A DNA stretch of 64,000 bases from the human T2T-CHM13v2.0 reference genome, Homo sapiens. Positions 3,790 through 44,240 of this stretch are shown piece after piece (position 1 is the first letter of the stretch; the number at the start of each line of letters is the position of its first letter). A model generated the notes under the pieces. That model made no database searches. It was not told the origin of the DNA and saw only the letters and a list, made by a program, of their open reading frames with translations. Location of the stretch: assembly GCF_009914755.1 (NCBI RefSeq), contig NC_060948.1. One strand, 5' to 3'. Made by a program: the position numbers and the translations under genes.

Positions 3790-4925
3790 CTAGAAGAAAG
3801 TGTAAGGACCTGGTAACTATGGCACAGTAAAGGATGAAGATAGTGAAAACCACAATCATTTGTTCCCACTCTTTTAAAGTCTTCTGGTAACCATTTTTGT
3901 ACACAAGGGCCTCAAATGATTCCTTCTTCATAATCAAGATTAACTGCAAAAAAAAAAAAAAAAGGAAAAACCCTGCAAATCCAAAACTCTCCTTGATATG
4001 TGTCCTTCGTAACAGACGAAAAAAAAAAAAAAAACCTCTATAATCCCAAGGCTAGAAAGCGACTCGACTTCCAAGGAATGACGCACATCTGAACAAACAC
4101 TATGCTATTTGGGTTATGAGTCCTTACTAAAATGAAGATAAATGTAATGCAGATAAAAAATTGTTTCACTTTTTAAAACCTAAGCCATTATCTCTTCCCA
4201 CTCCCAGCAGTACGAAAAAGTTTAATTGCAAATGCTGAGAAGTGCGAACATCCACATAAAAATAACGTTGCAGCCTGGTTCAATATATGAGAAAAAAGCT
4301 GTATGCTCTGCGAAAACTTTTTGACTTCTCTGAATATTGTGTTAGTTGTTCACGACGACAGCCCAGGCTTATTTCAGTTTACATTCTTAATTCAGTCAAA
4401 CTTCTACGAGGTTCATTTAGTAGTTTTCAGTATAGCAACCCAAAATGGTCTACGTTTAATAATAAATTTAATTGATGGCAAAGGATGCCACATCACTCCC
4501 ATTATTTGCTATATTTGCTACATACATCTAAGGTCATATCAAAGAAAGAAAACACCAGTCCAAGTGGTTAACACACAAGCTTATATAACTTGCTTCTGTC
4601 ATAGATCAAGTACTTCTGAGTAAGCTATTTTTTTGCGGTTAAATGTAATAAAAGCTTGTGTATGCCTAAACTATATTTAATAACAGCAGAACGTAGAAAT
4701 ATTTGAATCTTATATTTTTGTCCCTACAGCAGTCAGATGTTTAGAACCCCGTGGAATGTGGCGATCTGATACTAATATTCTGATGCCAGCTTGTTCGGGT
4801 CAGAAAAGTTAAATGAGAAATTTGGTGCTAAGGGTTTCTGGTCATGAGTGTAAATAACGCCTCGCCAAGTGGTAAACTGCCCCAACGTTCAAACCAAAGG
4901 CTACCCATTCCCAAATTTTGTTTCA

Positions 4926-5117
<192 letters not shown>

Positions 5118-5220
5118 TCACATTGTCTTTAATGACGCGCTGGTTCCTCCTACTAAAAGGCCTATGAAAATTTCATTTTCTTGAGAATTTCAAGGTTACT
5201 TTAATCCCGTAGCTGCTTAC

Positions 5221-5430
5221 CAATCGTCAGGGATCCTAGTTTTACAGCCACCATCTTGACCTCCGGGCCCTGCAGTGTGGTACGAGCCGTCTCACTCCGC
5301 GGATCGATTTTTCCGGCGCTATTTCCAAACCTGTGAGACCTTCCGCACCTGAGATAAACGCTGAGGACGCAAGAGCGATTTTACCAGAGGAAAACAGTCA
5401 CAGAGCCGTCGCTGGACTCATATTAAACAG
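5221..5430 (-). other. KDM5D: KDM5D non-coding exon 1 (5' UTR); upstream limit (TSS) approximate
   Basis: Donor TTG|GTAAGC at 5221/5220; 117-nt intron to acceptor at 5104; lies inside the CpG-rich region. Confidence 0.8.
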
Positions 5431-6639
5431 TACTGCGACAGAACGAAAAAGCAAGATAAAAATAGTATGGCCGGATCTTTTTTAAAATGGGACCACTGCG
5501 CAAGTTACGCCTGCGTATTGCAGGGAAGGACCGTAAAAGGCTGTGGTGCTGATCAACGAAGGATTTCTCGGAGAAAATTCCTCCTTTGCGGAAATGTCCG
5601 TAGAAACGCACCTTTTTTTTTTCCTGCCAGGACAAACCGCCGGCGATATCCGTTCATGTGAAAGTGTTTACTAACATTCTCTGAAGACTCACTGGGTTCT
5701 CAGCTCGAGAACGTTCCTGTCACAAGACGTTTAGGAGGCAGGATGCCGGTACAATGTATTTATGTTCTTGTAAACTGTTGCATTAACAGTGCACTTCAAG
5801 TGGGCACATTTGTCGTTGGATTTTTTACCAACTCGAGCTTGGACTTTAGGACGGGGAAAAGAAGTGCTAAATGTTTTTGAATAAAACCTTTACTGCACAT
5901 GATAAACATCCCTTAAAAATTACCTAGGAGCACCCTAAATTTTAAAATGATCACAAAGACCTGGACAGATTACAGTAAACCTTCAACATCGCTAAACACA
6001 CGTACCATAAATCAAAAGAAACACACTGCTAATGATCCGTTTTTTGATGTGGAAATATCATGCTGTTTTTAAGGGAAATTATACTTTATTGCGATGTTTT
6101 ATTTCAAAACAAGATGTTACACTTTATTTCCTATAATTTTATTTACAATATTTTACACCCGTTAAGCAAAAATCCCCCTACATTGCTATTCTGTTTTTTT
6201 TTAATCAGTTCACTACTGTAGTATCTTTTTGTTCTCCATATATTTTTGAAAAATACGCAAAAGGTAAGTTTTAAAAATCAAATGGTAGATTTTATTTGGA
6301 AGGGCACTGCCAGAAGTGCCTTAAAGTTTGATAGTTTGACAATTGTTTCGTATTGTACGATTCTTGGCATTTCCGTTTTTTTTTTTAACAATTTATCCAT
6401 TTCATCTAGATTATCGGCTTCATGAGTTTATTATACTACATTACATATATATTCCTGTTTCAAAAGTTGTTACTTAATTTTCTGCTTTCTTTTTCCTAGT
6501 TTTATCTACATACTTTTTCTGTTTCATAAAGTTAGAGTTATAGAGTTCTATTTCATAAAATTAGTTATAGAGCCTGTATTATTTCAAATGATGAGATCTT
6601 TTTTCTCTGTTCAAGATAATTCATTATAATACAGCTTTA

Positions 6640-11401: not shown

Positions 11402-14660
<3,259 letters not shown>

Positions 14661-22888: not shown

Positions 22889-25389
22889 TAGTGGGTTGGT
22901 TTGTAGCAACAGTGAATTCAATCAACTGGCTTTATTTCTAGAATATTTTAAAGATATTTTATCTCAGGATTTCTGGATGGTGTTCTGTAACTCTAGGGAC
23001 TGGGAATGAGCTTTGGCTTTGTTCCTTTACACCCTGAGGTTAGAAATCTGCTGCACTGGAGGGACCAAGATGCTCTCAGAGAAATGGTCACAACACTCTA
23101 ATGATTGGTAGTAGCCAATGTGCTTCATATGCGGGTGGTAGCAGGATTCATCTTCGTACTCACATGCCACCAGCATCAGCAGTGGCAGCATGATGGGGTG
23201 CACATTCATCAGTTGTGCCAGGGTGTCAGTGGGTGCTGGGTTTCCAGTCTCCATGAAAGCATATGCAGCACTGACAGTGGCAGCACACTATGGGAGGTTA
23301 TGTGGAGGGCAGTTGGTGATTGTGTGCATATTTGTAGTGTTGGTGGGTGTTAGCATGGGGGCAGCTTTCTTTTGGATGCAGGACTGTGTGTGCCCTCTCT
23401 GTGCATTTGTGGGGGCAGTGGTGATCACTCAGATGTGGTAGGTTGCACTGTTTTCTGTGCCTACTTTTATGCTGGCAGCAGTGTTGTTTCAGGTTTGGAG
23501 CACTGGCAGGGGCAGGACTGGTGGACTTCATTCCCTCCAACACTCTGATGACAGTGGCAGTCCAGTGGAGGGTGTGAGATGCACTAACACCAACAGCAGT
23601 GGCACAGCAGGTTGCACACACATGCATGCTGGTAGGCAACCAAAAGCAAGATCTGTTCACGCATACATACACCAGCAAATGGGGGTGGCCATTTACTTTC
23701 AGTCTTAAGAAGAAAGTTTGTCATTTGAAATATGCAATTTAGTGTATTTTAAATATGCTGGGAGATTAGCATATTTTAAAATATTTTACGTAAAAATGAA
23801 GAAAATGACATAGAACAAAGTGAGCACAAGGGTCACATTGAGAGGTTTTAACTATAATTAAATTTTCATCTAATAAATATGATAATTATAAAGAAAACCA
23901 GCTGGTTTTTGGAAGACATCAAAGTGTTCTGTATCAAGCAATAATCTCCATTAACCTATTCTGAAAGGCAGGAGCAGGATGGACTGCATATTCTGAACTT
24001 TGGGAGGTAAATCTGTGTTGGAGCTGCTCACTGTCCATGGAGGAGTGGAGCACAAAGTATCTGGGGGTGAAGGTCATGGCACCATTTTTCAGCAGGGGGA
24101 GGAATAATTTTTGGTTTGAAATATTCAAAAAAAAATTTGAAAAAATTAAACTGGGTATGTGTGTATTTGACCATAGTAAAAAAATTTTAACAGACCTTTT
24201 TTTGATTATCATTACATAATACAAATAAAATTTACTGATAATTCAAAAATTTGAACAACAAAAAGCCTTGTCCTAAACTGACATATATTGAACCTGAGCT
24301 TTGTGTTATGTTTTTCAGTACATATGGGTCAATTATTTCCTCTCAAAAATTTTAACAAATTATGACATTTTATATAACAAATTATAACCTTTTAATTATA
24401 GAATATAGCCTCACTACCCAATAAGTAATAATATTTTTGAAATGCTGTATTAAATTTCTTAAATAGTAAAAATTGAAACTGGGACACTTGTAATGAATAA
24501 TTACTTTGTTTGTAAATCACAATAGAGATTCTCCATATCAAAGCTGTGAACTGTATTCTATAGTATTTAGGCAAATAAGATAGCTACAAATTTAAGTACT
24601 GTAATAATAGATGCCTGACAATATGTGCTATAGGTAAATCTTTGAAATTTATTAAATGAAGTATAGATTGAATACAAGTAATATGTAATAATACATTATA
24701 ATTTAATAACATTTAGAATAATTACATTTTATACAAAAATAAAATTAAGATAAAATTCACATAGTGCAATGGTGAGTAAGATGTGAAAAGACAATAAGAA
24801 TAAACAGCATTAAAATTATTGATAGAGTTTGTAAAACCCCTAGAGATTAAGGAAAACAAACATAGGAATAAATTAGAAAACTAGAGACAATAATAATTTC
24901 TGTAAATTATAGGCTACCAAAACCAGAATAAGAATAAACAAGGACTCAAAAAACAAATTTTAAATATTTGGAAGTATTAATCAAAAGTTCTCATTACTTT
25001 AAATGATTCTTTTTCCATTTTTAAGGTCTAGGTATTCCTTATTCAAAGCAGTTTTACTAATCAGGAAAATGGGAAAAGCCATGGAAATATTTTATATGGC
25101 TATTACACTCAAAACATGCAAGATTTAAAACTAGGCCAATATAAATTATGGACTTGGATATACAACTAGTATCTAAGTATACAAATAATAACAAATGGTT
25201 TATTTCAGAATTATACGATATACCAGTAAGAGGATCAAATCATATCATCAAATACATTACAAATTAAATGAGACAAGTACATTCACTGAGGAAATCATTT
25301 TATACCCTTATACATTGTTTCTAAGCAATTTAACTTAGAAAAAAATTAACAGAGAACATTTCAACTCTTCATGATGGCAACACATCAGG

Positions 25390-26200
25390 ATATGGAAATA
25401 ACCAATGAAAATGCCCAAGAAACCCATAAAGTCATGTTCAACGTCCTTATTGATTAGGAAAATACAAATAAAAACCACAATGAGATATCACTTCATAGCT
25501 AGTAGTATAGGTACAGTTAGGAAGATAGATAAATGTGCGTGAGGATGTGGAGATAAGTAGAGACTAATACAATGCTGGTGAAATGGTGAAATGATGCAGC
25601 CATTTGGGAACACTTTGACAAGTCCTCCAAAGGTAACCATAGAGTTACCATATAATCCAGAAATTCCACTCCAAAGGATACGCCCAGTACAAACAAAAAC
25701 ATACAGCCACACAAAAACTTGTACATAAATGCCCACAGAAACATTATTTATTATAGCCAAAAGTGCAAACAATCCACAATGACAATCAGTGGAGGAATAG
25801 ATAAACAAATGTGATACATTCATACAATGGAATAGTATTTAGGTATAAAAAGGAATGAAGTACCAATATGAGCTACGACATGGATGGAGATTGAAAACAT
25901 GCTCAATGAAACAAGCAACACATAAAAGGCCAGGTACTTTATGAATCCATTTGTATAAAATACCCAGAGCAGGCAAATTCATAGAAACAGAAAATAAATT
26001 AATTTTTTGCCAGCTTGGGGAATGAGAGTAGGAAGGGACAGCTTAATTTGTATGGCTTTTATTTTGGGGGTGATTATACTGTTCTGGAGTTACCTCATAT
26101 TAACAATTGTGAATACATCAAGAAACACTAAGTTGTAAATTTTAACATGATCAACATTTTTGTTATATGATTTTAATATCAATAAAATGAATTTTTAAAA
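25390..26200 (+). mobile_element. L1MB-like 3' end
   Basis: aaaaccacaatgagatatcacttca; aattccactcc; terminal aataaa. Confidence 0.8.
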
Positions 26201-27114
26201 ATAAACAAGATAATTGTTGCCAAAATGCAGACCATCTTTCCAGCTGCAAATGTAAGTGTAGAAAACACACACACACACTCACAGAGAAACATTAAATGAA
26301 CAGAATGAAAAGGTAAAATGAGCAAAGCCGAGTCATCAAGGTTGTATTGGTGTTTTGGGGTAACCTAGGAAAGCCAAAAATAGACACACTCAGGCTTCAG
26401 CCATGTATTTAGTGCAACTCTGTCATAGAAATATACCTGGTCTTGGTAGATGAATCAACTAGGTATATCTGTGTAATGTAAAATATGCTTAAAAATAATT
26501 TTTAAAAAAATGTCATGAGACTCAGAACATATGGTAAAATAATATTTAACTAATGAAGGACCAACAGATATGATAATCTTTTTTTTTTAAAAAAAGCACT
26601 ATCAGCCAGAAGAGTATTATTCATGAATATCTAAGTGAATGTAAAAATGCAGGGAAAACTCATTTCATTATAGGGTGAAAGGAGAGACGATTGGACAAGA
26701 CACCATGCTCATCTGACAGTGACCTAAAACTTAACAAAGGTCTGTAAAAGCACTCAATGGCATTGCAGGCTAGAATCATATAACCTGGATTGGTGTCATT
26801 TAGACAGGCTCAGGCTTACCATTGAAGAACACATTTCTACTATAAAAAGTCAAGTGGAAAAGTTACAGTTTTCTCAAGAACAGGGTACCATCATTAAGGT
26901 GACCAGGTTTTTATCATGGGAACTTCTAGTCCCAGATCTGATCATGGCTAAATGAATACCAATGGCATCCCAATGTCTAGGGTGTCACAAAGGCTGATCC
27001 CTAACCAGTGAGGGGCTGGCCCAGAGGTACACAGTGGGTGAGACTGAGCACTGCTGTCTTGAGACTCCAAGGCCACGTGGAGAGTCAAGTTGGGTCAACT
27101 GGAGCAAAGCTCAC

Positions 27115-27863
27115 TTAGTCCTTTTCATGATGCTGTAACAGAAGCTGAGACTAAAAAAATTATTAAGGAAGGAGGTTTATTTAGTCCATGGATCTACAGC
27201 CTAAGAATTACAAGATTGGCTGGGCACAGTGGCTCATGCCCGTAATACCAGCACATTGGGAGGCCAAGGAAGGCAGATCACCTGAGGTTGAGAGTTCAAG
27301 ACCAGCCTGTCCAATGTGGAGAAATCCCATCTCTACTAAAAATACAAAATTAGCCAAGCATGGTGGTGCATAATTCCAGCTACTCAGGAGGTGGAGGCAG
27401 GAGAATCGCTTGAACCTGGGAGACAGAGGTTGTGGTGAGCCGATGTCACAGCATTGTACTCCAGCCCGGGCAACAAGAGTTAAACTCTGACTCAAAAAAA
27501 TAATAATAATAAATAAGATGTACAACCCTGGCACCTGCTTAACTTGTGGAGGGCCTTATACTACTTATGCTGCTTCCACTCAAGTTGAAAAGTGGAAGGA
27601 AATCAGGTGTGTGCAAAGAGAACACATGGCAAGAGGGGAAGAAAGAGAGAGAGAGAAACCAAGGAATCTACACTCTTTAACAACCCATTCTTGCAGAAAA
27701 TGAGAGCAAGAAATTACAATGCAGGAATACATCAATCTCTTTATGTGGAATCCACACCCATGACCCCAAATCTCAAATAGATCCTACCTTACAATACTGT
27801 CCCATGGAGAATTGAATTTCAAAATGAGTTTTGTTGTAGACAGTCTACATCAAAATCATAGCA
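27115..27863 (-). mobile_element. MaLR solo LTR (MST/MLT1-like) with an Alu inside
   Basis: ttagtcc...gctgtaacagaa...ggtttatttag and terminal atcatagca; possible 5-bp TSD ctcac/ttcac. Confidence 0.75.
27218..27516 (+). mobile_element. AluS (Sp/Sq-like)
   Basis: Full Alu with (AAT)n tail. Confidence 0.93.
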
Positions 27864-27882
27864 TTCACAAAACCACAGAACT

Positions 27883-28112
27883 ACGAAAAAGAAATGTTGG
27901 AGCTCTCAAAGACATAGGAAGTAGGCCTGCCCCCTCTCAGCATGAGCAGAACTACAGTTCCCATAAGCCCTGTGGACACCTCCTGTGGGAGATCAGCTGT
28001 GCCCAGTGCCTGAGCTCATCCACACCTGTTCTTCTTGCTGCAACTTTGCACCTGATGGGCAACACCTTGGAGCTGATGGGCAATGAAGCCCACAATAACA
28101 GAAAGTGCTGTA
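27883..28112 (+). pseudogene. Short histone H2A variant (H2A.L-like) pseudogene
   Basis: Stitched translation TKKKCWSSQRHRK*ACPLSA*AELQFP/ISPVD/HLLWEISCAQCLSSSTPVLLAATLHLMGNTLELMGNEAHNNRK matches the H2A.L histone fold as I recall it; two stops and two 1-nt frameshifts. Confidence 0.8.
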
Positions 28113-28244
28113 ATATTGTAATAATATATATATATATAGTATTGTAATAAAATATATATATAAAAATATAACGTATATGTAATAAAATATATATTGTAGA
28201 TGTATAATTACATGTTATATATTAAAGTATACATATACATTATA

Positions 28245-28287
<43 letters not shown>
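28113..28287. repeat. TA-rich low complexity ending in (TG)9(TA)12
   Basis: Read directly. Confidence 0.9.
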
Positions 28288-28288
<1 letters not shown>

Positions 28289-28734
28289 CTTGTCCCAGAC
28301 ACGTGTTCCATTTGTTAGTAATTAAATATTTATGATTGGGATTATTTATAAGTATATTTTCTTAGAAACACAATTTTATCCATCTCATAGATGAAACACC
28401 ATCTACCTAATGATCACATTTTTTATAGAGCTACATAGAGTTATCAGTGGCTAAACAAGTCTTAGAAAATATTTTCTGCATAAATGCTGTCCCAAGTGAT
28501 AGTCTCAAAACATATGTAAGTCTTATGAATATTTTCATGGGCTGCATTAAATTAAAAAATGTTATCTTATCAAGTTGTGTAGTTATCTAACCCCTTTACC
28601 TTCAGCACCAAATTTTGAGATTTGTACCTCTGTATCAAAGGCTCAAATGCCACCCTCTTATGCCTCTGGCCTTTACAAAGACAGCTGGTAAGAGGCTGCC
28701 CAGCTCATCTGAAGTACAGGATAAGATTGTCTGA

Positions 28735-28835
28735 CTTGGAGATACCATTTTCCACTTAGCAGCCATGTAATCTTTCATATTCATTTTTTCTAAGTGGCAC
28801 TTTTCTCAGATGTAAAATGGGGATAATGAGTTTAT
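28735..28835 (+). mobile_element. Possible MIR fragment
   Basis: ttttctcagatgtaaaatggggataat resembles the MIR core. Confidence 0.55.
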
Positions 28836-30589
28836 TCATCTTTGAGTTGCTCCCAAGCAGAAGTCAACTTGAGACTATAAACTTGTGCTCACTGCAGTGC
28901 TTGAAACCGAGTTTGTACTTAATAAATAGCTGCATACATCTTTTTCTATACATGTCAGATGCTTAATTGTGTTTCCCGAAGATGTTGCCAAGCCGGGTCC
29001 TCACATAACTCCTGATCCCTTGGGTCACAGGGTGTGAAAACCACACTCTGCTGAACTTTGTAGAGTGACTATGAGAGGAGGAAGACAGTTATATCAGTGA
29101 ACTACAGCACATGCTGGCTCCTCTCCATTCTCCAGTCCCTGGTGACTCACACACTCTCTGCCTCTCTACCACCAGTCAAAGCAGAAGGACCTGGCTTGAC
29201 TTTTGCCGACTTTGCTAGGATGACCTAAGAATAAAATAAATGCTATAGGAGTTGTGCTTAGAATTCATTGAATATGTACTTTATCATACAAGAACCATTA
29301 TTACCATATAATGCCAATTAAAACTCTTATGTTCATATGTCACCCAAACAAATTTGTCATTTAGTATACAGAGTCATGAATGACTCTTAACATAGCCCAA
29401 TTCATTCTATGATTAACTCCTTCTGTGGAAAAATAGACCATGGTGGTTAACATTTGTCTAGTCAGGGGTTGTCATAGGATTGCACCATCTCCTTGGCAAG
29501 GGCATAGGGACACAAGAGTCCAGAACGGGCTAGCATGGGGGAGAGGGCTTGGGTCATCGTTTTTTTCTGTCAGGTCTGTGCTGCCTTCTCTCCTTTGTAC
29601 ATCCAGCATTTTGAGAGTACGCAGGATCAAGAACTTAGTTCATTCTGCCTGCTTGGAAGCACTCTAGACCCTATAGTCTTCAGCGTCTACAACTCCTGTG
29701 CATCCCAGGGGACTACACAGGGTGCTTAATTGGGCACATGTATCAAATAGAACTGTAAATGTTTGCATTATTCCCCTCTGTCAAATACCCATTTAAATTT
29801 AGTTTAATCTTTAAGGTTAACAAAGTTAGATACAGAGGGAGGGAGATATTAAGGAGTGCTGAGAAAGTGGGCACCTCTATGCGGGTAAACAAGGCATATT
29901 TCCAACCACATCAACTACCACAGCTTTAGATTCACCAAAGACTCAGGGTCAGCTTTGGAGACTCCTTTATCTTTTTCCTAGCAGGAGAAAAATAAACAAT
30001 AACAAAAGCACTCGGGTTCCTTGTTTCAATCCCACCTCACATACACATAAGCATCATTAACAGTACAGCGTGGGGCTCTTTATCCCATCTTGTGCACCGC
30101 TTGCCTGAGAGAATTTGCTACTGGTCCTGGGGAGCCCTGTCATATTCCCTTAGCAGGCCTGCAAAGATCTGTGTCCATTTCTTTTCCAAAAAGTCATTTT
30201 TCTCTCAACATCCCAATCTCATTTCCAAAACTGTCAATAAATATCAAGTTTCTTAGATTTTACTCATTTCTTAAGCCAACGTATTAACCTTCTAATTTCA
30301 TGAATGCTAATAGAAAGCATGAGACACCTATGCATCATATAAAAGTGTTTTTTATTCGTTGCATAAGTGGGAGTAAAGCTCAATGTTTGTATTCCTTTTT
30401 CTTGTCAACCCCTGGTACTTCAGGGAATGCAAAAAGGCTCCAGTGGACACTGCAAATTCAGTACATTTTTGTCAGCTGGGGACTCTCACGGTTAAGAAAA
30501 CCCTATTATTAAAGCGGCCAAGAATATCAGAATTCAATCATGTATTAAAATTAAAATTTTCAGAATACGATGAAGTATTACAAGCAGAA

Positions 30590-31130
30590 TTCACCAATCT
30601 GAGAAAGAATCTCAGAACGTAAAAATCTGATCTATGAAGTAACTCAGAAAAAATAAAGCCTAAAGAAAAATAAAACCTTTGAGAAATAAGCGATTATGTA
30701 AGGAGACCAAATCTATGCCTCATTGACATTCCTGAAAAACAGGGAGAGACAGCAACAACTTAGATAATATATTTCATTATAACAAGATGAAATTTTTTTT
30801 TGAACCCACTAGTTAGGTCAAAATTCAAATTCAGGAAATGCAAAAAAAAACCCCAGTAAAATACACGAGACCATTCCCAAGACACAAAGTTATCAGAACC
30901 TGCAAGTTTCAAACGAAAAAAAAAATGCTAAAGGCAGCTAGACAGAAGTGGAAAGTAACGTTACCTACAAAAGAAACTCCTTCGGGTTAACGGTAGACCT
31001 TTCAGTAGAAACTCGGTGAGCCAGTAAAGAAGGGAACTTCTATTCAAAATTTTAAAGAAAAAAATTTCCAATAAAAAATTATCTAGTCAAATTAAGCTAC
31101 ATAAATAAAGAAGTAATATTATTTTCAGCA
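30590..31130 (+). mobile_element. L1 ORF1 fragment
   Basis: gagaccaaatct, attcaaattcaggaaatgc, aaggcagctaga motifs. Confidence 0.8.
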
Positions 31131-31134
31131 TGAG

Positions 31135-32265
<1,131 letters not shown>

Positions 32266-40224: not shown

Positions 40225-44240
<4,016 letters not shown>

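What the first reader, a model, noticed from the sequence alone, without database searches (positions are those of the whole stretch)
27883..28310. Decayed short-H2A (H2A.L-like) histone gene on the Y, 22 kb upstream of KDM5D
Seen: joining three frames gives a basic tail (KKKCWSSQRHRK*) followed by SA*AELQFP/ISPVD/HLLWE..AQCLSSSTPVLLAATL.HLMGNTLELMGNEAHNNRK. Several lesions look like CpG decay (TGA, TGG, TGT, TGC where Arg is expected). After a ~175-nt TA-rich stretch, gtcccaga-cacgtg (~28292-28305) may be the PEHV motif; this part is tentative. Known: H2A.L proteins read roughly RAELQFPVSRVDRxLREG..RLSSSxPVFLxxVLEYLTxNILELAGxxAH, and the short H2A variants (B, L, P, Q) are testis-expressed and ancestrally X-linked. 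Inference: this is a dead Y gametolog or transposed copy. I do not recall an annotation here but cannot check.
Basis: partly seen in the sequence, partly recalled or inferred. Interest (0 to 1): 0.82.

Follow-up and report, generated by a model that had tools for sequence, protein, structure and literature searches.

The report
Dead short-H2A histone pseudogene on Y
This stretch of the human Y chromosome is a real but long-dead fragment of a testis-type "short" histone H2A gene, and it belongs to an old family of broken copies that also sit on chromosomes 16, 19 and 8.

Summary
Window 27877-28111 (+) is a decayed short-H2A coding remnant covering codons 1-81 (N-tail to alpha2/L2). A human X-linked H2A.L protein hits only this spot in the 64-kb window (tblastn E 4e-7). 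The frame-corrected reading is 50% identical over 74 residues to elephant H2A.L.3.

It is not an isolated Y relic. It lies in a ~6.8-kb block (23689-30518) that is collinear with chr16 (88% identical), chr8 and three chr19p12 loci (~70-75%), and in part with the flanks of the X-linked H2A.L, H2A.P and H2A.Q loci.

Family copies share killing lesions:
- a 1-nt deletion (7 of 7 copies);
- loss of the C-terminal third, replaced by a TA-rich array (6 of 6 that reach it);
- an old repeat inserted in the 5' UTR (4 of 6).

The gene was therefore dead before the Y/chr16 split. The Y then added two stops, two 3-nt deletions and an Alu.

The family forms its own deep branch outside the human H2A.L loci. 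A copy carried in a duplicated DNA segment is favoured over an in-place X-Y gametolog. The "PEHV" guess fails, and the CpG-decay claim is only partly right. I found no sign of function. Interest is low to moderate.

The parts
23689..30518 (+). ~6.8-kb duplicated block ('duplicon') that carries the pseudogene. It is collinear with chr16:38.28 Mb and, at lower identity, with chr8:43.48 Mb and three chr19p12 loci.
   Evidence: blastn: Y 23689-27215 / 27516-28180 / 28178-30518 against chr16 at 84.5-85.6% with gaps counted. Three-way MAFFT gives 88.3% identity, K80 0.128, n=6374. chr8 matches Y 23885-30324 at 67-75%. chr19 copies match Y 25439-28903. No LTRs or terminal inverted repeats. No retroelement Pfam domain in any of the 97 open frames of 40 aa or more in 23000-31500; the one L1 hit lies outside the block.
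25689..27108 (+). 5' flank (putative former promoter region), homologous to the 5' flanks of the X-linked H2A.L.1, H2A.L.2ps, H2A.L.3, H2A.P and H2A.Q loci.
   Evidence: blastn: Y 25689-26046 and 26717-27108 against X:36.32 Mb, E 6e-35 each. Y 26712-27064 against X:37.10. Y 26895-27108 against X:37.40. A second match upstream of H2AP, and X:136.87. tblastn of the upstream in-frame extension of the X:37.40 ORF hits 26962-27126, E 5e-11.
27114..27215 (.). Left part of an old interspersed repeat inserted between the 5' flank and the coding remnant (split by the Alu).
   Evidence: In one search, query positions about 1015-1116 hit 32 of the 42 listed loci, on many chromosomes, at 73-79%. No counterpart in the X loci, where the 5' flank and the aligned CDS are only 82 bp apart. 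Repeat family not identified (no repeat library available).
27216..27515 (+). Alu insertion, specific to the Y copy relative to chr16.
   Evidence: chr16 is continuous across the site (subject 437 then 439). The stretch matches many Alu-like copies in every locus fetched. A-rich tail at about 27495-27520. The name 'Alu' and the orientation rest on my recognition of the sequence, not on a repeat library.
27516..27864 (.). Right part of the same old interspersed repeat, ending about 13 nt before the start-codon equivalent.
   Evidence: 188 candidate loci genome-wide, 40 scored, typically 66-80%. Present at the same place in chr16, chr8:43.48 and chr19:20.11. In the other two chr19 copies Alus occupy that interval.
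27877..28111 (+). Short-H2A (H2A.L-like) coding remnant, codons 1-81: N-terminal basic tail, alpha1, L1, alpha2 and the start of L2.
   Evidence: Codon map against the X H2A.L.1 ORF. tblastn E 4e-7. The corrected translation is 50% identical over 74 aa to elephant H2A.L.3 (P0027), E 3e-18 in a 125-sequence database.
27877..27879 (+). Lost start codon: AGA in Y, ACG in chr16, GTG in chr8:43.48. ATG is kept only in chr8:34.37.
27922..27924 (+). Premature TAG (codon 16), Y-specific. chr16 has CAG here and its own TAG one codon earlier.
27943..27945 (+). Premature TGA (codon 23), Y-specific. Derived from AGA, so not a CpG change.
27959..27960 (+). 1-nt deletion (codon 28), shared with chr16 only.
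27977..27978 (+). 1-nt deletion (codon 35) shared by all 7 family copies and absent from the X-linked H2A.L, P, Q and B loci and from two canonical H2A genes.
   Evidence: alignments; codon map
28047..28048 (+). 3-nt deletion (codons 58-59), Y-specific.
28097..28098 (+). 3-nt deletion (codons 76-77), Y-specific.
28112..28290 (.). TA-rich microsatellite that stands where the rest of the gene (ITPEH..., alpha3, alphaC) and about 700-800 bp of 3' flank should be. It is expanded in Y.
   Evidence: TRF. Present but shorter in chr16, chr19 x3 and chr8:43.48. From codon 81 to the first shared 3'-flank block is about 900-960 bp in 3 of 3 X loci and about 120-230 bp in family copies. No C-terminal match.
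28316..30518 (+). 3' flank of the duplicon. Parts are also found downstream of the X H2A.L.2ps, H2A.P and H2A.Q loci, and as remnants without a detected coding part on chr18, chr12 and chr19q.

Best explanation
Window 27877-28111 is a non-functional, non-processed pseudogene fragment of a eutherian short histone H2A, most similar to H2A.L. It did not decay in place from a working Y gene. It is one copy of an old family of already-dead copies.

Inferred history:
1. An early DNA-level duplicate of an X-type short-H2A locus was made, with promoter flank and 3' flank included.
2. That duplicate suffered three lesions: a repeat insertion in the 5' UTR, a 1-nt frameshift in alpha1, and a deletion of the C-terminal third plus 3' flank, now marked by a TA-rich array.
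3. The dead ~6.8-kb unit was then copied to several places, now mostly pericentromeric: chr8p11, chr19p12 and chr16, with partial copies on chr12, chr18 and chr19q.
4. One of these copying events links the Y locus and the chr16 locus.

Dating is my inference from recalled primate neutral divergences:
- K80 0.128 puts the Y/chr16 split at about 45-60 million years ago.
- K80 0.33-0.34 puts the family's dispersal at about 80-100 million years ago.

After the Y/chr16 split the Y copy gained two stop codons, two 3-nt deletions, an Alu insertion and an expansion of the TA array.

Shown: homology, the extent of the block, shared versus private lesions, and tree topology within the human genome.
Inferred: the dates, the direction of transfer between Y and chr16, and the absence of function.
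For: 1. Real histone homology.
2. DNA-level duplication, not retroposition: collinear 5' and 3' flank homology to chr16, chr8, chr19 and to the X loci.
3. The nearest relative is autosomal. Y+chr16 is supported 100/100; identity is 88.3% over 6374 sites.
4. Lesions shared across the family:
   - the 1-nt deletion in 7 of 7 copies;
   - the C-terminal loss with TA-rich array in 6 of the 6 copies that reach that point;
   - the 5' UTR repeat in 4 of 6.
5. The family is monophyletic (96/93) and lies outside the human H2A.L.1/.2/.3 loci. Joining it with the H2A.L.2 pseudogene is rejected (p-AU 0.0015).
6. Y-private lesions are listed.
7. Per-branch change since the split is nearly equal: 300 Y-specific against 253 chr16-specific changes.
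8. The hub's RefSeq table lists no gene or transcript over the remnant.
Against: - The direction of the Y/chr16 event is unresolved. Both flanks of the Y block are common L1/Alu repeats (17486 and 13075 first-look candidates). One attempt to find an uninterrupted L1 elsewhere gave nothing usable.
- The block ends at nearly the same points in chr16 (Y 23689-30518) and chr8 (Y 23885-30324). That is odd for independent segmental duplications, and I cannot explain it.
- Only the human genome could be searched at DNA level. Orthologous Y, chr16, chr8 and chr19 loci in other primates or mammals were not examined, so the dates rest on recalled substitution rates.
- The family's deep position, outside the X H2A.L cluster, is also what an old Y gametolog would show if the X copies later homogenised each other.
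- Pfam's histone model does not hit the raw frame.
- Absence of function rests on lesions and annotation only. No expression data were available.
Confidence: 0.75

Rival explanations
1. True X-Y gametolog. A short-H2A gene sat on the proto-sex chromosomes before X-Y recombination stopped. The Y copy died early, and the chr16, chr8 and chr19 copies are all ancient Y-to-autosome copies of that dead gene.
For: - The locus lies in single-copy Y sequence 22.6 kb upstream of KDM5D (hub table). By recall, this is an X-degenerate region, and the X-linked H2A.L/P cluster lies in an old X stratum that also holds partners of Y genes.
- The family branches outside all human X H2A.L loci. That fits an old X-Y split followed by the concerted evolution among X copies reported by Molaro et al. 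2018 (PMC5880237, passages read).
Against: - The Y copy is nested in the family as sister of chr16, not basal to it.
- All killing lesions are shared with autosomal copies.
- It needs several Y-to-autosome transfers of a dead segment at about the same early time.
- No X-Y homology was found outside the unit in the 10-kb X loci examined.
- No second Y copy was found.
Confidence: 0.15
2. Processed (retrotransposed) pseudogene of an X-linked H2A.L mRNA that landed on the Y.
For: Short H2A genes are intronless (PMC5880237), so lack of introns cannot exclude it. An old repeat and an Alu lie next to the remnant.
Against: - Homology to the X loci includes at least 1.4 kb of 5' flank and parts of the 3' flank.
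- There is no poly(A) tract at the end of the coding remnant; a TA array stands there.
- The whole 6.8-kb unit is shared with chr16 and chr8.
Confidence: 0.02
3. Chance resemblance or a repeat-derived open frame with no histone ancestry.
For: No Pfam histone hit on the raw 127-aa frame, and a spurious CDC24_OB3 match at E 0.0077. PDB E-values are only 0.01-0.2.
Against: - tblastn E 4e-7, the only hit with E below 1 in 64 kb.
- Nucleotide homology to X short-H2A loci in both the coding part and the flanks.
- 50% identity over 74 aa to elephant H2A.L.3 after frame correction.
- Own-genome searches with the remnant (266 bp and its 62-aa frame) return about ten short-H2A-related places (6 by DNA; five more by protein at E<=3, the other eight protein rows being weaker, E 0.39-5.9, and not checked as H2A), not thousands.
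Confidence: 0.01
4. The remnant or its block has been reused, for example as a non-coding RNA or a regulatory element for KDM5D or KDM5D-DT.
For: Nothing direct. It lies 7.3 kb beyond the annotated end of KDM5D-DT (20543, hub table).
Against: - Per-branch change since the split is similar on Y and chr16, 300 against 253, though this comparison cannot by itself show an absence of constraint.
- The block carries an Alu insertion, an old repeat insertion and a microsatellite expansion.
- The hub table lists no RefSeq functional element or transcript over it.
Confidence: 0.03

Closest known systems
H2A.L short histone H2A variants: human X-linked H2A.L.1 (X:36.32 Mb, intact ORF), H2A.L.3 (X:37.40 Mb, intact ORF), H2A.L.2 pseudogene (X:37.10 Mb), and H2A.L of other mammals such as elephant H2A.L.3
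   Same: - Intronless.
- Same order of N-terminal basic tail, the AELQFP stretch, alpha1, LSSSTPVFLA and LEL.GNEAHN.
- Homologous 5' and 3' flanks.
- Best protein scores among the 125 database sequences that gave a hit.
- By my own count and the supplement passages, the family reading matches elephant H2A.L.3 at about 39 of 57 positions and horse H2A.Q at about 31 of 55.
   Different: - Not X-linked.
- ORF destroyed, and the C-terminal third deleted.
- Not nested among the human H2A.L loci in trees.
- Placement in the mammal-wide protein tree is unresolved and prone to long-branch and CpG-decay convergence.
Human H2A.Q pseudogene (locus at X:136.87 Mb; HGNC lists H2AQ1P)
   Same: - Also a decayed short H2A with the same flank homology.
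- Shares LLW and LELMGN..H.N-type readings.
- It is the family's sister in the best nucleotide tree.
   Different: - Support for that pairing is weak: 56/42 and 70/72.
- A bona fide H2A.Q protein (P0126) scores much lower against the family than H2A.L proteins do: 46.6 bits against about 70 bits for the chr16 copy.
- The family lacks the loop1/alpha2 deletion seen in the X:136.87 locus.
Mouse Y-linked H2al2b/H2al2c and autosomal H2al2a
   Same: Short H2A copies that left the X. Molaro et al. 2018 describe rodents as the only exception to X-linkage in eutherians (PMC5880237, passage read).
   Different: By the papers' account, the mouse genes are intact, recent, rodent-specific and (for the chr2 copy) essential. 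The human Y copy is an ancient dead fragment with no demonstrated relation to them. I did not compare mouse sequences.
Pericentromeric and interchromosomal segmental duplications of primate genomes
   Same: A multi-kb DNA unit with gene fragment and flanks, found near centromeres of chr8, 12, 16, 18 and 19. That these positions are pericentromeric is my reading of T2T coordinates from recall.
   Different: Divergence among most copies (K80 about 0.33) is far greater than I recall for classic primate pericentromeric duplicons. The unit ends are nearly the same in the Y, chr16 and chr8 copies.

Membership tests
Short histone H2A (H2A.L/P/Q/B group) | Significant sequence homology to the H2A histone fold (alpha1-L1-alpha2) | tested here: met
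   tblastn E 4e-7. All 60 PDB rows shown of 177 are H2A. Corrected translation gives E about 1e-17 to 1e-18 against H2A.L proteins. Pfam PF00125 did not hit the raw frame.
Short histone H2A (H2A.L/P/Q/B group) | Branches inside the eutherian short-H2A clade rather than with canonical H2A or H2A.X | tested here: met
   Rooted on canonical H2A and H2A.X, the family lies inside the L/P/Q group (98/96 and 97/98), above H2A.B.
Short histone H2A (H2A.L/P/Q/B group) | Shortened C-terminus lacking the docking domain and C-terminal tail | not testable with these tools
   Everything after codon 81 is deleted in all copies that reach that point, so the feature cannot be read.
H2A.L clade specifically | Phylogenetic placement within H2A.L | tested here: inconclusive
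   Best similarity is to H2A.L. Against that: the family plus the three human H2A.L loci as one clade gives p-AU 0.03, and with the H2A.L.2 pseudogene 0.0015. Mammal-wide protein trees are unresolved, and the AU tests on the protein tree did not finish. Molaro et al. also report that H2A.L is not a well-supported clade.
H2A.L clade specifically | Location at one of the ancestral syntenic X-linked loci | tested here: not met
   The window is chrY (hub). Relatives are on chr16, chr19 and chr8.
Functional short H2A gene | Intact intronless ORF with a start codon | tested here: not met
   No ATG, two in-frame stops, two 1-nt deletions and loss of the C-terminal third.
Functional short H2A gene | Testis-specific expression | not testable with these tools
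   No expression data were available. The hub table lists no transcript.
X-Y gametolog pair | The Y copy's closest relative is a single X-linked partner | tested here: not met
   The closest relative is chr16 (100/100; 88% identity).
X-Y gametolog pair | X-Y homology extends into the surrounding sequence beyond the gene unit | tested here: inconclusive
   None was found outside 23689-30518 in the X loci fetched. The Y flanks are young repeats, and only 10 kb per X locus was examined.
Processed pseudogene (retrocopy) | Homology limited to the mRNA, with a poly(A) tail and target-site duplications | tested here: not met
   5' and 3' flank homology with the parent-type loci. No poly(A).
Duplicated (non-processed) pseudogene within a segmental duplicon | Collinear multi-kb homology, including non-coding flanks, at several loci | tested here: met

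The most novel reading that the evidence does not exclude
The Y, chr16, chr8 and chr19 copies are the remains of a fifth, unrecognised eutherian short-H2A lineage. It split from the H2A.L/P/Q stem about as early as those clades split from each other. It left the X, or was the Y-side partner of the ancestral X gene, roughly 90-100 million years ago. The copy next to KDM5D would then be the last trace of a Y-linked short H2A in the primate lineage, and X-linkage of short H2As would not have been universal outside rodents. The donkey predicted protein P0128 carries similar residues with an intact C-terminus and could be a surviving relative.
Probability: 0.12. Interest if true: 0.55.

Novelty: new member of a known kind. 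Interest (0 to 1): 0.3.

Why it matters
Short H2A variants (H2A.B, L, P, Q) are fast-evolving testis histones. Their near-exclusive X-linkage has been used to argue for sex-chromosome conflict. Molaro et al. 2018 state that rodents are the only eutherian exception to X-linkage (PMC5880237, passage read).

This locus and its sisters show that the human genome holds at least seven non-X short-H2A remnants: one on Y, one on chr16, three on chr19 and two on chr8. They form their own old branch, so copies did leave the X early. As far as the human copies show, they left as dead DNA.

That is a small correction to the family's history and a useful annotation for T2T-Y. It does not add a gene or a mechanism.

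I found no description of these copies in the following places:
- three full-text searches;
- the passages of the two key papers read;
- the four readable supplement files of Molaro et al..

Molaro's Supplemental Tables S1-S5 and Figure S2 could not be read and may list such hits. GENCODE pseudogene tracks could not be consulted.

Tried and rejected
- Pfam on the raw frames: no histone hit, and one spurious CDC24_OB3 match.
- The idea that the 6.8-kb unit is a transposon or ERV that captured a histone:
  - no LTRs or terminal inverted repeats;
  - no retroelement domains in any of the 97 open frames of 40 aa or more in 23000-31500, apart from an L1 ORF1 piece outside the block.
- Flank tests for an empty insertion site: both flanks are dominated by L1/Alu. 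One L1 copy on chr6 ends at the same point as the Y left-flank repeat, but nothing beyond it matches the Y right flank.
- A weak protein hit at X:50.41 Mb (E 3), considered as a possible X partner. At nucleotide level it is about 40% identical to every H2A, which I take to be chance level, so I dropped it. The two short matches there to Y 25446-25850 probably reflect an old common repeat, which also matches chr1, chr18 and X:136.87.
- Word-based protein search with the human H2A.Q ORF: no candidates. The exhaustive search gave 11 hits, including one clear H2A.Q (P0126) and a primate ortholog (P0121).
- AU tests on the 46-row protein tree did not finish in the time limit, and I did not rerun them.
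- I did not feed sequences printed in the Molaro supplement into any tool. The comparison with them is by eye only.
Full report
**1. What is there**

One frame holds a basic stretch ending in TAG. A second holds the AELQFP stretch between a TGA and a TAA. A third holds ISPVD. The longest frame (27764-28147) holds HLLWE..AQCLSSSTPVLLAATL.HLMGNTLELMGNEAHNNRK.

- Pfam does not recognise the raw frame.
- phmmer against PDB lists 177 sequences at E<=10. All 60 shown are H2A, best H2A.Bbd at E 0.012.

**2. Is it more than chance?**

The window's own genome is held. I read intact X-linked short-H2A ORFs from it and used them as queries.

| Locus | Identity |
|---|---|
| X:36.32 Mb | matches the start of Molaro's 'Human_H2A.L.1.longORF' |
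| X:37.40 Mb | presumably H2A.L.3 |
| X:153.6 Mb | H2A.B |

- tblastn of these ORFs against the whole 64-kb window gives a single hit with E below 1 in the coding part. It lies at 27968-28111 with E 4e-7, 8e-5 and 9e-5.
- A codon-by-codon map against H2A.L.1 covers codons 1-81, at window 27877-28111.
- After frame correction (X at stops and broken codons), the Y reading is 50% identical over 74 residues to P0027, E 3e-18 in a 125-sequence database.
- P0027 is an elephant protein whose histone-fold part equals the 'Elephant_H2A.L.3' row of Molaro's supplement.

**3. It is not alone, and the homology is not confined to the gene**

Own-genome searches with the 266-bp remnant and its translation found these relatives:

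| Place | Identity to the Y remnant |
|---|---|
| chr16:38.286 Mb | 87% |
| three loci in chr19 (20.11, 20.72, 20.90 Mb) | 74-75% |
| chr8:43.48 Mb | 54% (protein, 48 aa) |
| chr8:34.37 Mb | 44% (protein, 44 aa) |
| X:37.10 Mb (an H2A.L pseudogene with in-frame TAGs) | 75% |

Comparing 10-30 kb around each locus shows one collinear block:

- Y 23689-30518 against chr16;
- Y 23885-30324 against chr8:43.48;
- Y 25439-28903 against the chr19 copies.

Parts of the same block flank the X genes:

- The 5' flank (Y 25689-27108) matches the 5' flanks of H2A.L.1, L.2ps, L.3, H2A.P and the X:136.87 locus.
- Pieces of the 3' flank (Y 28316-29314) match downstream of L.2ps, H2A.P and X:136.87.

This excludes a retrocopy. 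It shows a DNA-level duplicate that once carried its own promoter region.

The block has no LTRs or terminal inverted repeats. None of the 97 open frames scanned in 23000-31500 carries a retroelement domain, apart from an L1 ORF1 piece outside the block.

**4. Shared versus private damage**

Alignments and the codon map separate three layers.

*Family-wide lesions*
- A 1-nt deletion in alpha1 (after Y 27977) is present in 7 of 7 copies. It is absent from the X-linked H2A.L, P, Q and B loci and from two canonical H2A genes.
- The coding homology stops at codon 81 and a TA-rich array follows, in 6 of the 6 copies that reach that point.
- From codon 81 to the first shared 3'-flank block is 120-230 bp in the family and 900-960 bp in three X loci. 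So about 700-800 bp, including the ITPEH..alpha3..alphaC coding part, were deleted.
- An old interspersed repeat (at least 188 candidate loci genome-wide) sits between the 5' flank and the start codon in Y, chr16, chr8:43.48 and chr19:20.11. The other two chr19 copies have Alus there.

*Lesions shared by Y and chr16 only*
- A second 1-nt deletion, after 27959.

*Y-only lesions*
- TAG at 27922-27924 and TGA at 27943-27945.
- 3-nt deletions after 28047 and after 28097.
- An Alu at 27216-27515 (chr16 is continuous across the site).
- A longer TA array.

The gene was therefore already dead when the Y and chr16 lineages separated, and most likely when the family dispersed.

**5.

*The 'PEHV' motif at 28292-28305.*
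- The sister copies read differently at the aligned bases, so the resemblance arises from Y-specific changes.
- tblastn with eight H2A.L C-termini finds nothing significant in the Y block or in the chr16, chr19 and chr8 loci. The best hit is E 0.028, at an unrelated site.
- The same queries hit the X:37.10 and X:136.87 pseudogenes at the expected place with E 1e-5 to 1e-10.
- The claim is not supported.

*CpG decay.*
- TGG at codon 38 and TGC at codon 45 stand where H2A.B has CGG/CGC and where other mammals' H2A.L have Arg. This is consistent with CpG transitions, but they are family-wide and old.
- The TGA at codon 23 derives from AGA, as chr16, chr19 and X show there. It is not a CpG change.

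**6. Which short H2A?**

Other X loci identified along the way:

- H2AP lies at X:37.394 Mb, 3.6 kb upstream of H2A.L.3.
- The X:136.87 Mb locus has a 6-7-codon gap in loop1/alpha2. This fits Molaro's description of simian H2A.Q.

Nucleotide trees of the coding part alone, and with the 5' flank added, rooted on canonical H2A and H2A.X, give these results:

| Result | Support |
|---|---|
| H2A.B is basal | |
| the seven non-X copies form one clade | 96/93 |
| Y + chr16 | 100/100 |
| chr19 trio | 100/100 |

The family sits beside (H2A.P + H2A.L) and H2A.Q in an unresolved three-way split.

| Grouping tested | Result |
|---|---|
| family + H2A.L.2 pseudogene | rejected, p-AU 0.0015 |
| family + all three human H2A.L loci | p-AU 0.03 |
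| family + H2A.Q | best tree, but unsupported (56/42) |

Against 95 mammalian H2A.L-type proteins and a bona fide H2A.Q (P0126), the family scores clearly better with H2A.L. For the chr16 copy this is about 70 bits against 47 bits.

The mammal-wide protein trees (81 columns) are unresolved. They pull all decayed sequences together. I suspect convergent CpG decay (Arg to Trp or Cys) and long branches.

My reading is H2A.L-like by similarity: an early offshoot of the L/P/Q stem by the human-only trees, with the exact clade open.

**7. Timing and direction (inference)**

| Pair | K80 distance | Sites |
|---|---|---|
| Y - chr16 | 0.128 | 6374 |
| Y - chr8 | 0.34 | 5578-5728 |
| chr16 - chr8 | 0.33 | 5578-5728 |

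- Excluding CpG-like sites changes little.
- With chr8 as outgroup, Y has 300 private changes and chr16 has 253 (chi-square 3.99).
- Using recalled primate neutral divergences, I place the Y/chr16 split at roughly 45-60 million years ago and the family's dispersal at roughly 80-100 million years ago.
- The direction of the Y/chr16 event could not be settled. Both Y flanks are L1/Alu, and the one test of an uninterrupted L1 gave nothing.
- The near-identical unit ends in chr16 and chr8 remain unexplained.

**8. Verdict on mechanism**

This is a silent relic: a duplicated, non-processed pseudogene fragment carried in a 6.8-kb duplicon.

- A strict in-place X-Y gametolog is disfavoured, because the nearest relative is autosomal and the killing lesions are shared.
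- It is not excluded. An old Y partner that later seeded the autosomal copies would also branch outside a homogenised X cluster. I give it 0.15.
- Retrocopy and chance are effectively excluded.

**9. Known or new?**

- Molaro et al. [quoted passage not shown] They mention non-syntenic paralogs only in a supplementary figure I could not read.
- The HGNC histone paper lists only H2AL1Q, H2AL3, H2AL1MP and H2AQ1P for human H2A.L and H2A.Q (passages). It has no mention of the Y chromosome.
- The readable Molaro supplements contain no chrY, chr16, chr19 or chr8 labels.
- Three full-text searches gave no report of such copies.
- The hub's RefSeq table lists nothing at the site.
- GENCODE could not be checked.

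I rate it a new, dead member of a known kind. It has modest value as a correction to the 'X-only' picture and as an annotation for T2T-Y.

Noticed in passing
L035:1410-1784 (chrX:37.394 Mb) and L035 about 4920-5530 (chrX:37.398 Mb): The H2AP (HYPM-type) ORF lies about 3.6 kb upstream of the H2A.L ORF at X:37.40 Mb, on the same strand. Each is preceded and followed by copies of the same flank sequences, so they look like tandem duplicates of one unit.
   Followed up: partly
L037:3409-3729 (chrX:136.87 Mb): A 106-codon open frame is a decayed short H2A with a 6-7-codon gap in loop1/alpha2. This matches Molaro's description of simian H2A.Q. It shares 5' and 3' flank homology with the Y block. An exhaustive protein search with it found only 11 hits at E<=0.001.
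   Followed up: partly
chr18:14.15 Mb (L036), chr19:30.36 Mb (L038), chr12:38.06 Mb (L039), chr12:34.12 Mb: Further copies of only the 3' half of the duplicon (matches within Y 28321-30514 at 65-70%), with no coding remnant detected. Together with the chr8p11, chr16 and chr19p12 copies, nearly all autosomal members lie close to centromeres by my reading of the coordinates.
   Followed up: partly
window 23689 / 23885 and 30518 / 30324: The duplicon ends at almost the same points in the chr16 and chr8 copies, although those copies are very diverged from each other. The left end abuts the terminus of a repeat, and one chr6 copy of that repeat ends at the same position. Unexplained.
   Followed up: partly
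window 30817-30987 (+): L1 ORF1 fragment (Pfam Transposase_22, E 1.3e-9) just outside the right end of the duplicon.
   Followed up: no
protein P0128 (UniRef: Histone H2A, Equus asinus): A donkey predicted H2A shares the family's unusual residues (HVDHLLW, ARCLSSS, FLAATF) but keeps an IPEHVEK C-terminal part. It groups next to the family (84/93) in the 46-row protein tree. It could be a related lineage in another order, or it could reflect convergent CpG decay.
   Followed up: partly
window 25409-25550: A short stretch inside the duplicon's 5' part also matches unrelated loci (chr1, chr18, X:50.41, X:136.87 on the other strand). It is probably an old common repeat embedded in the unit.
   Followed up: no
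L026/L042 (chr16:38.29-38.30 Mb) against window 11415-13596 and 40960-44235: L1-like repeats near the chr16 copy are 91-93% identical to repeats in the window. I take these to be members of a younger L1 family, unrelated to the duplicon.
   Followed up: no
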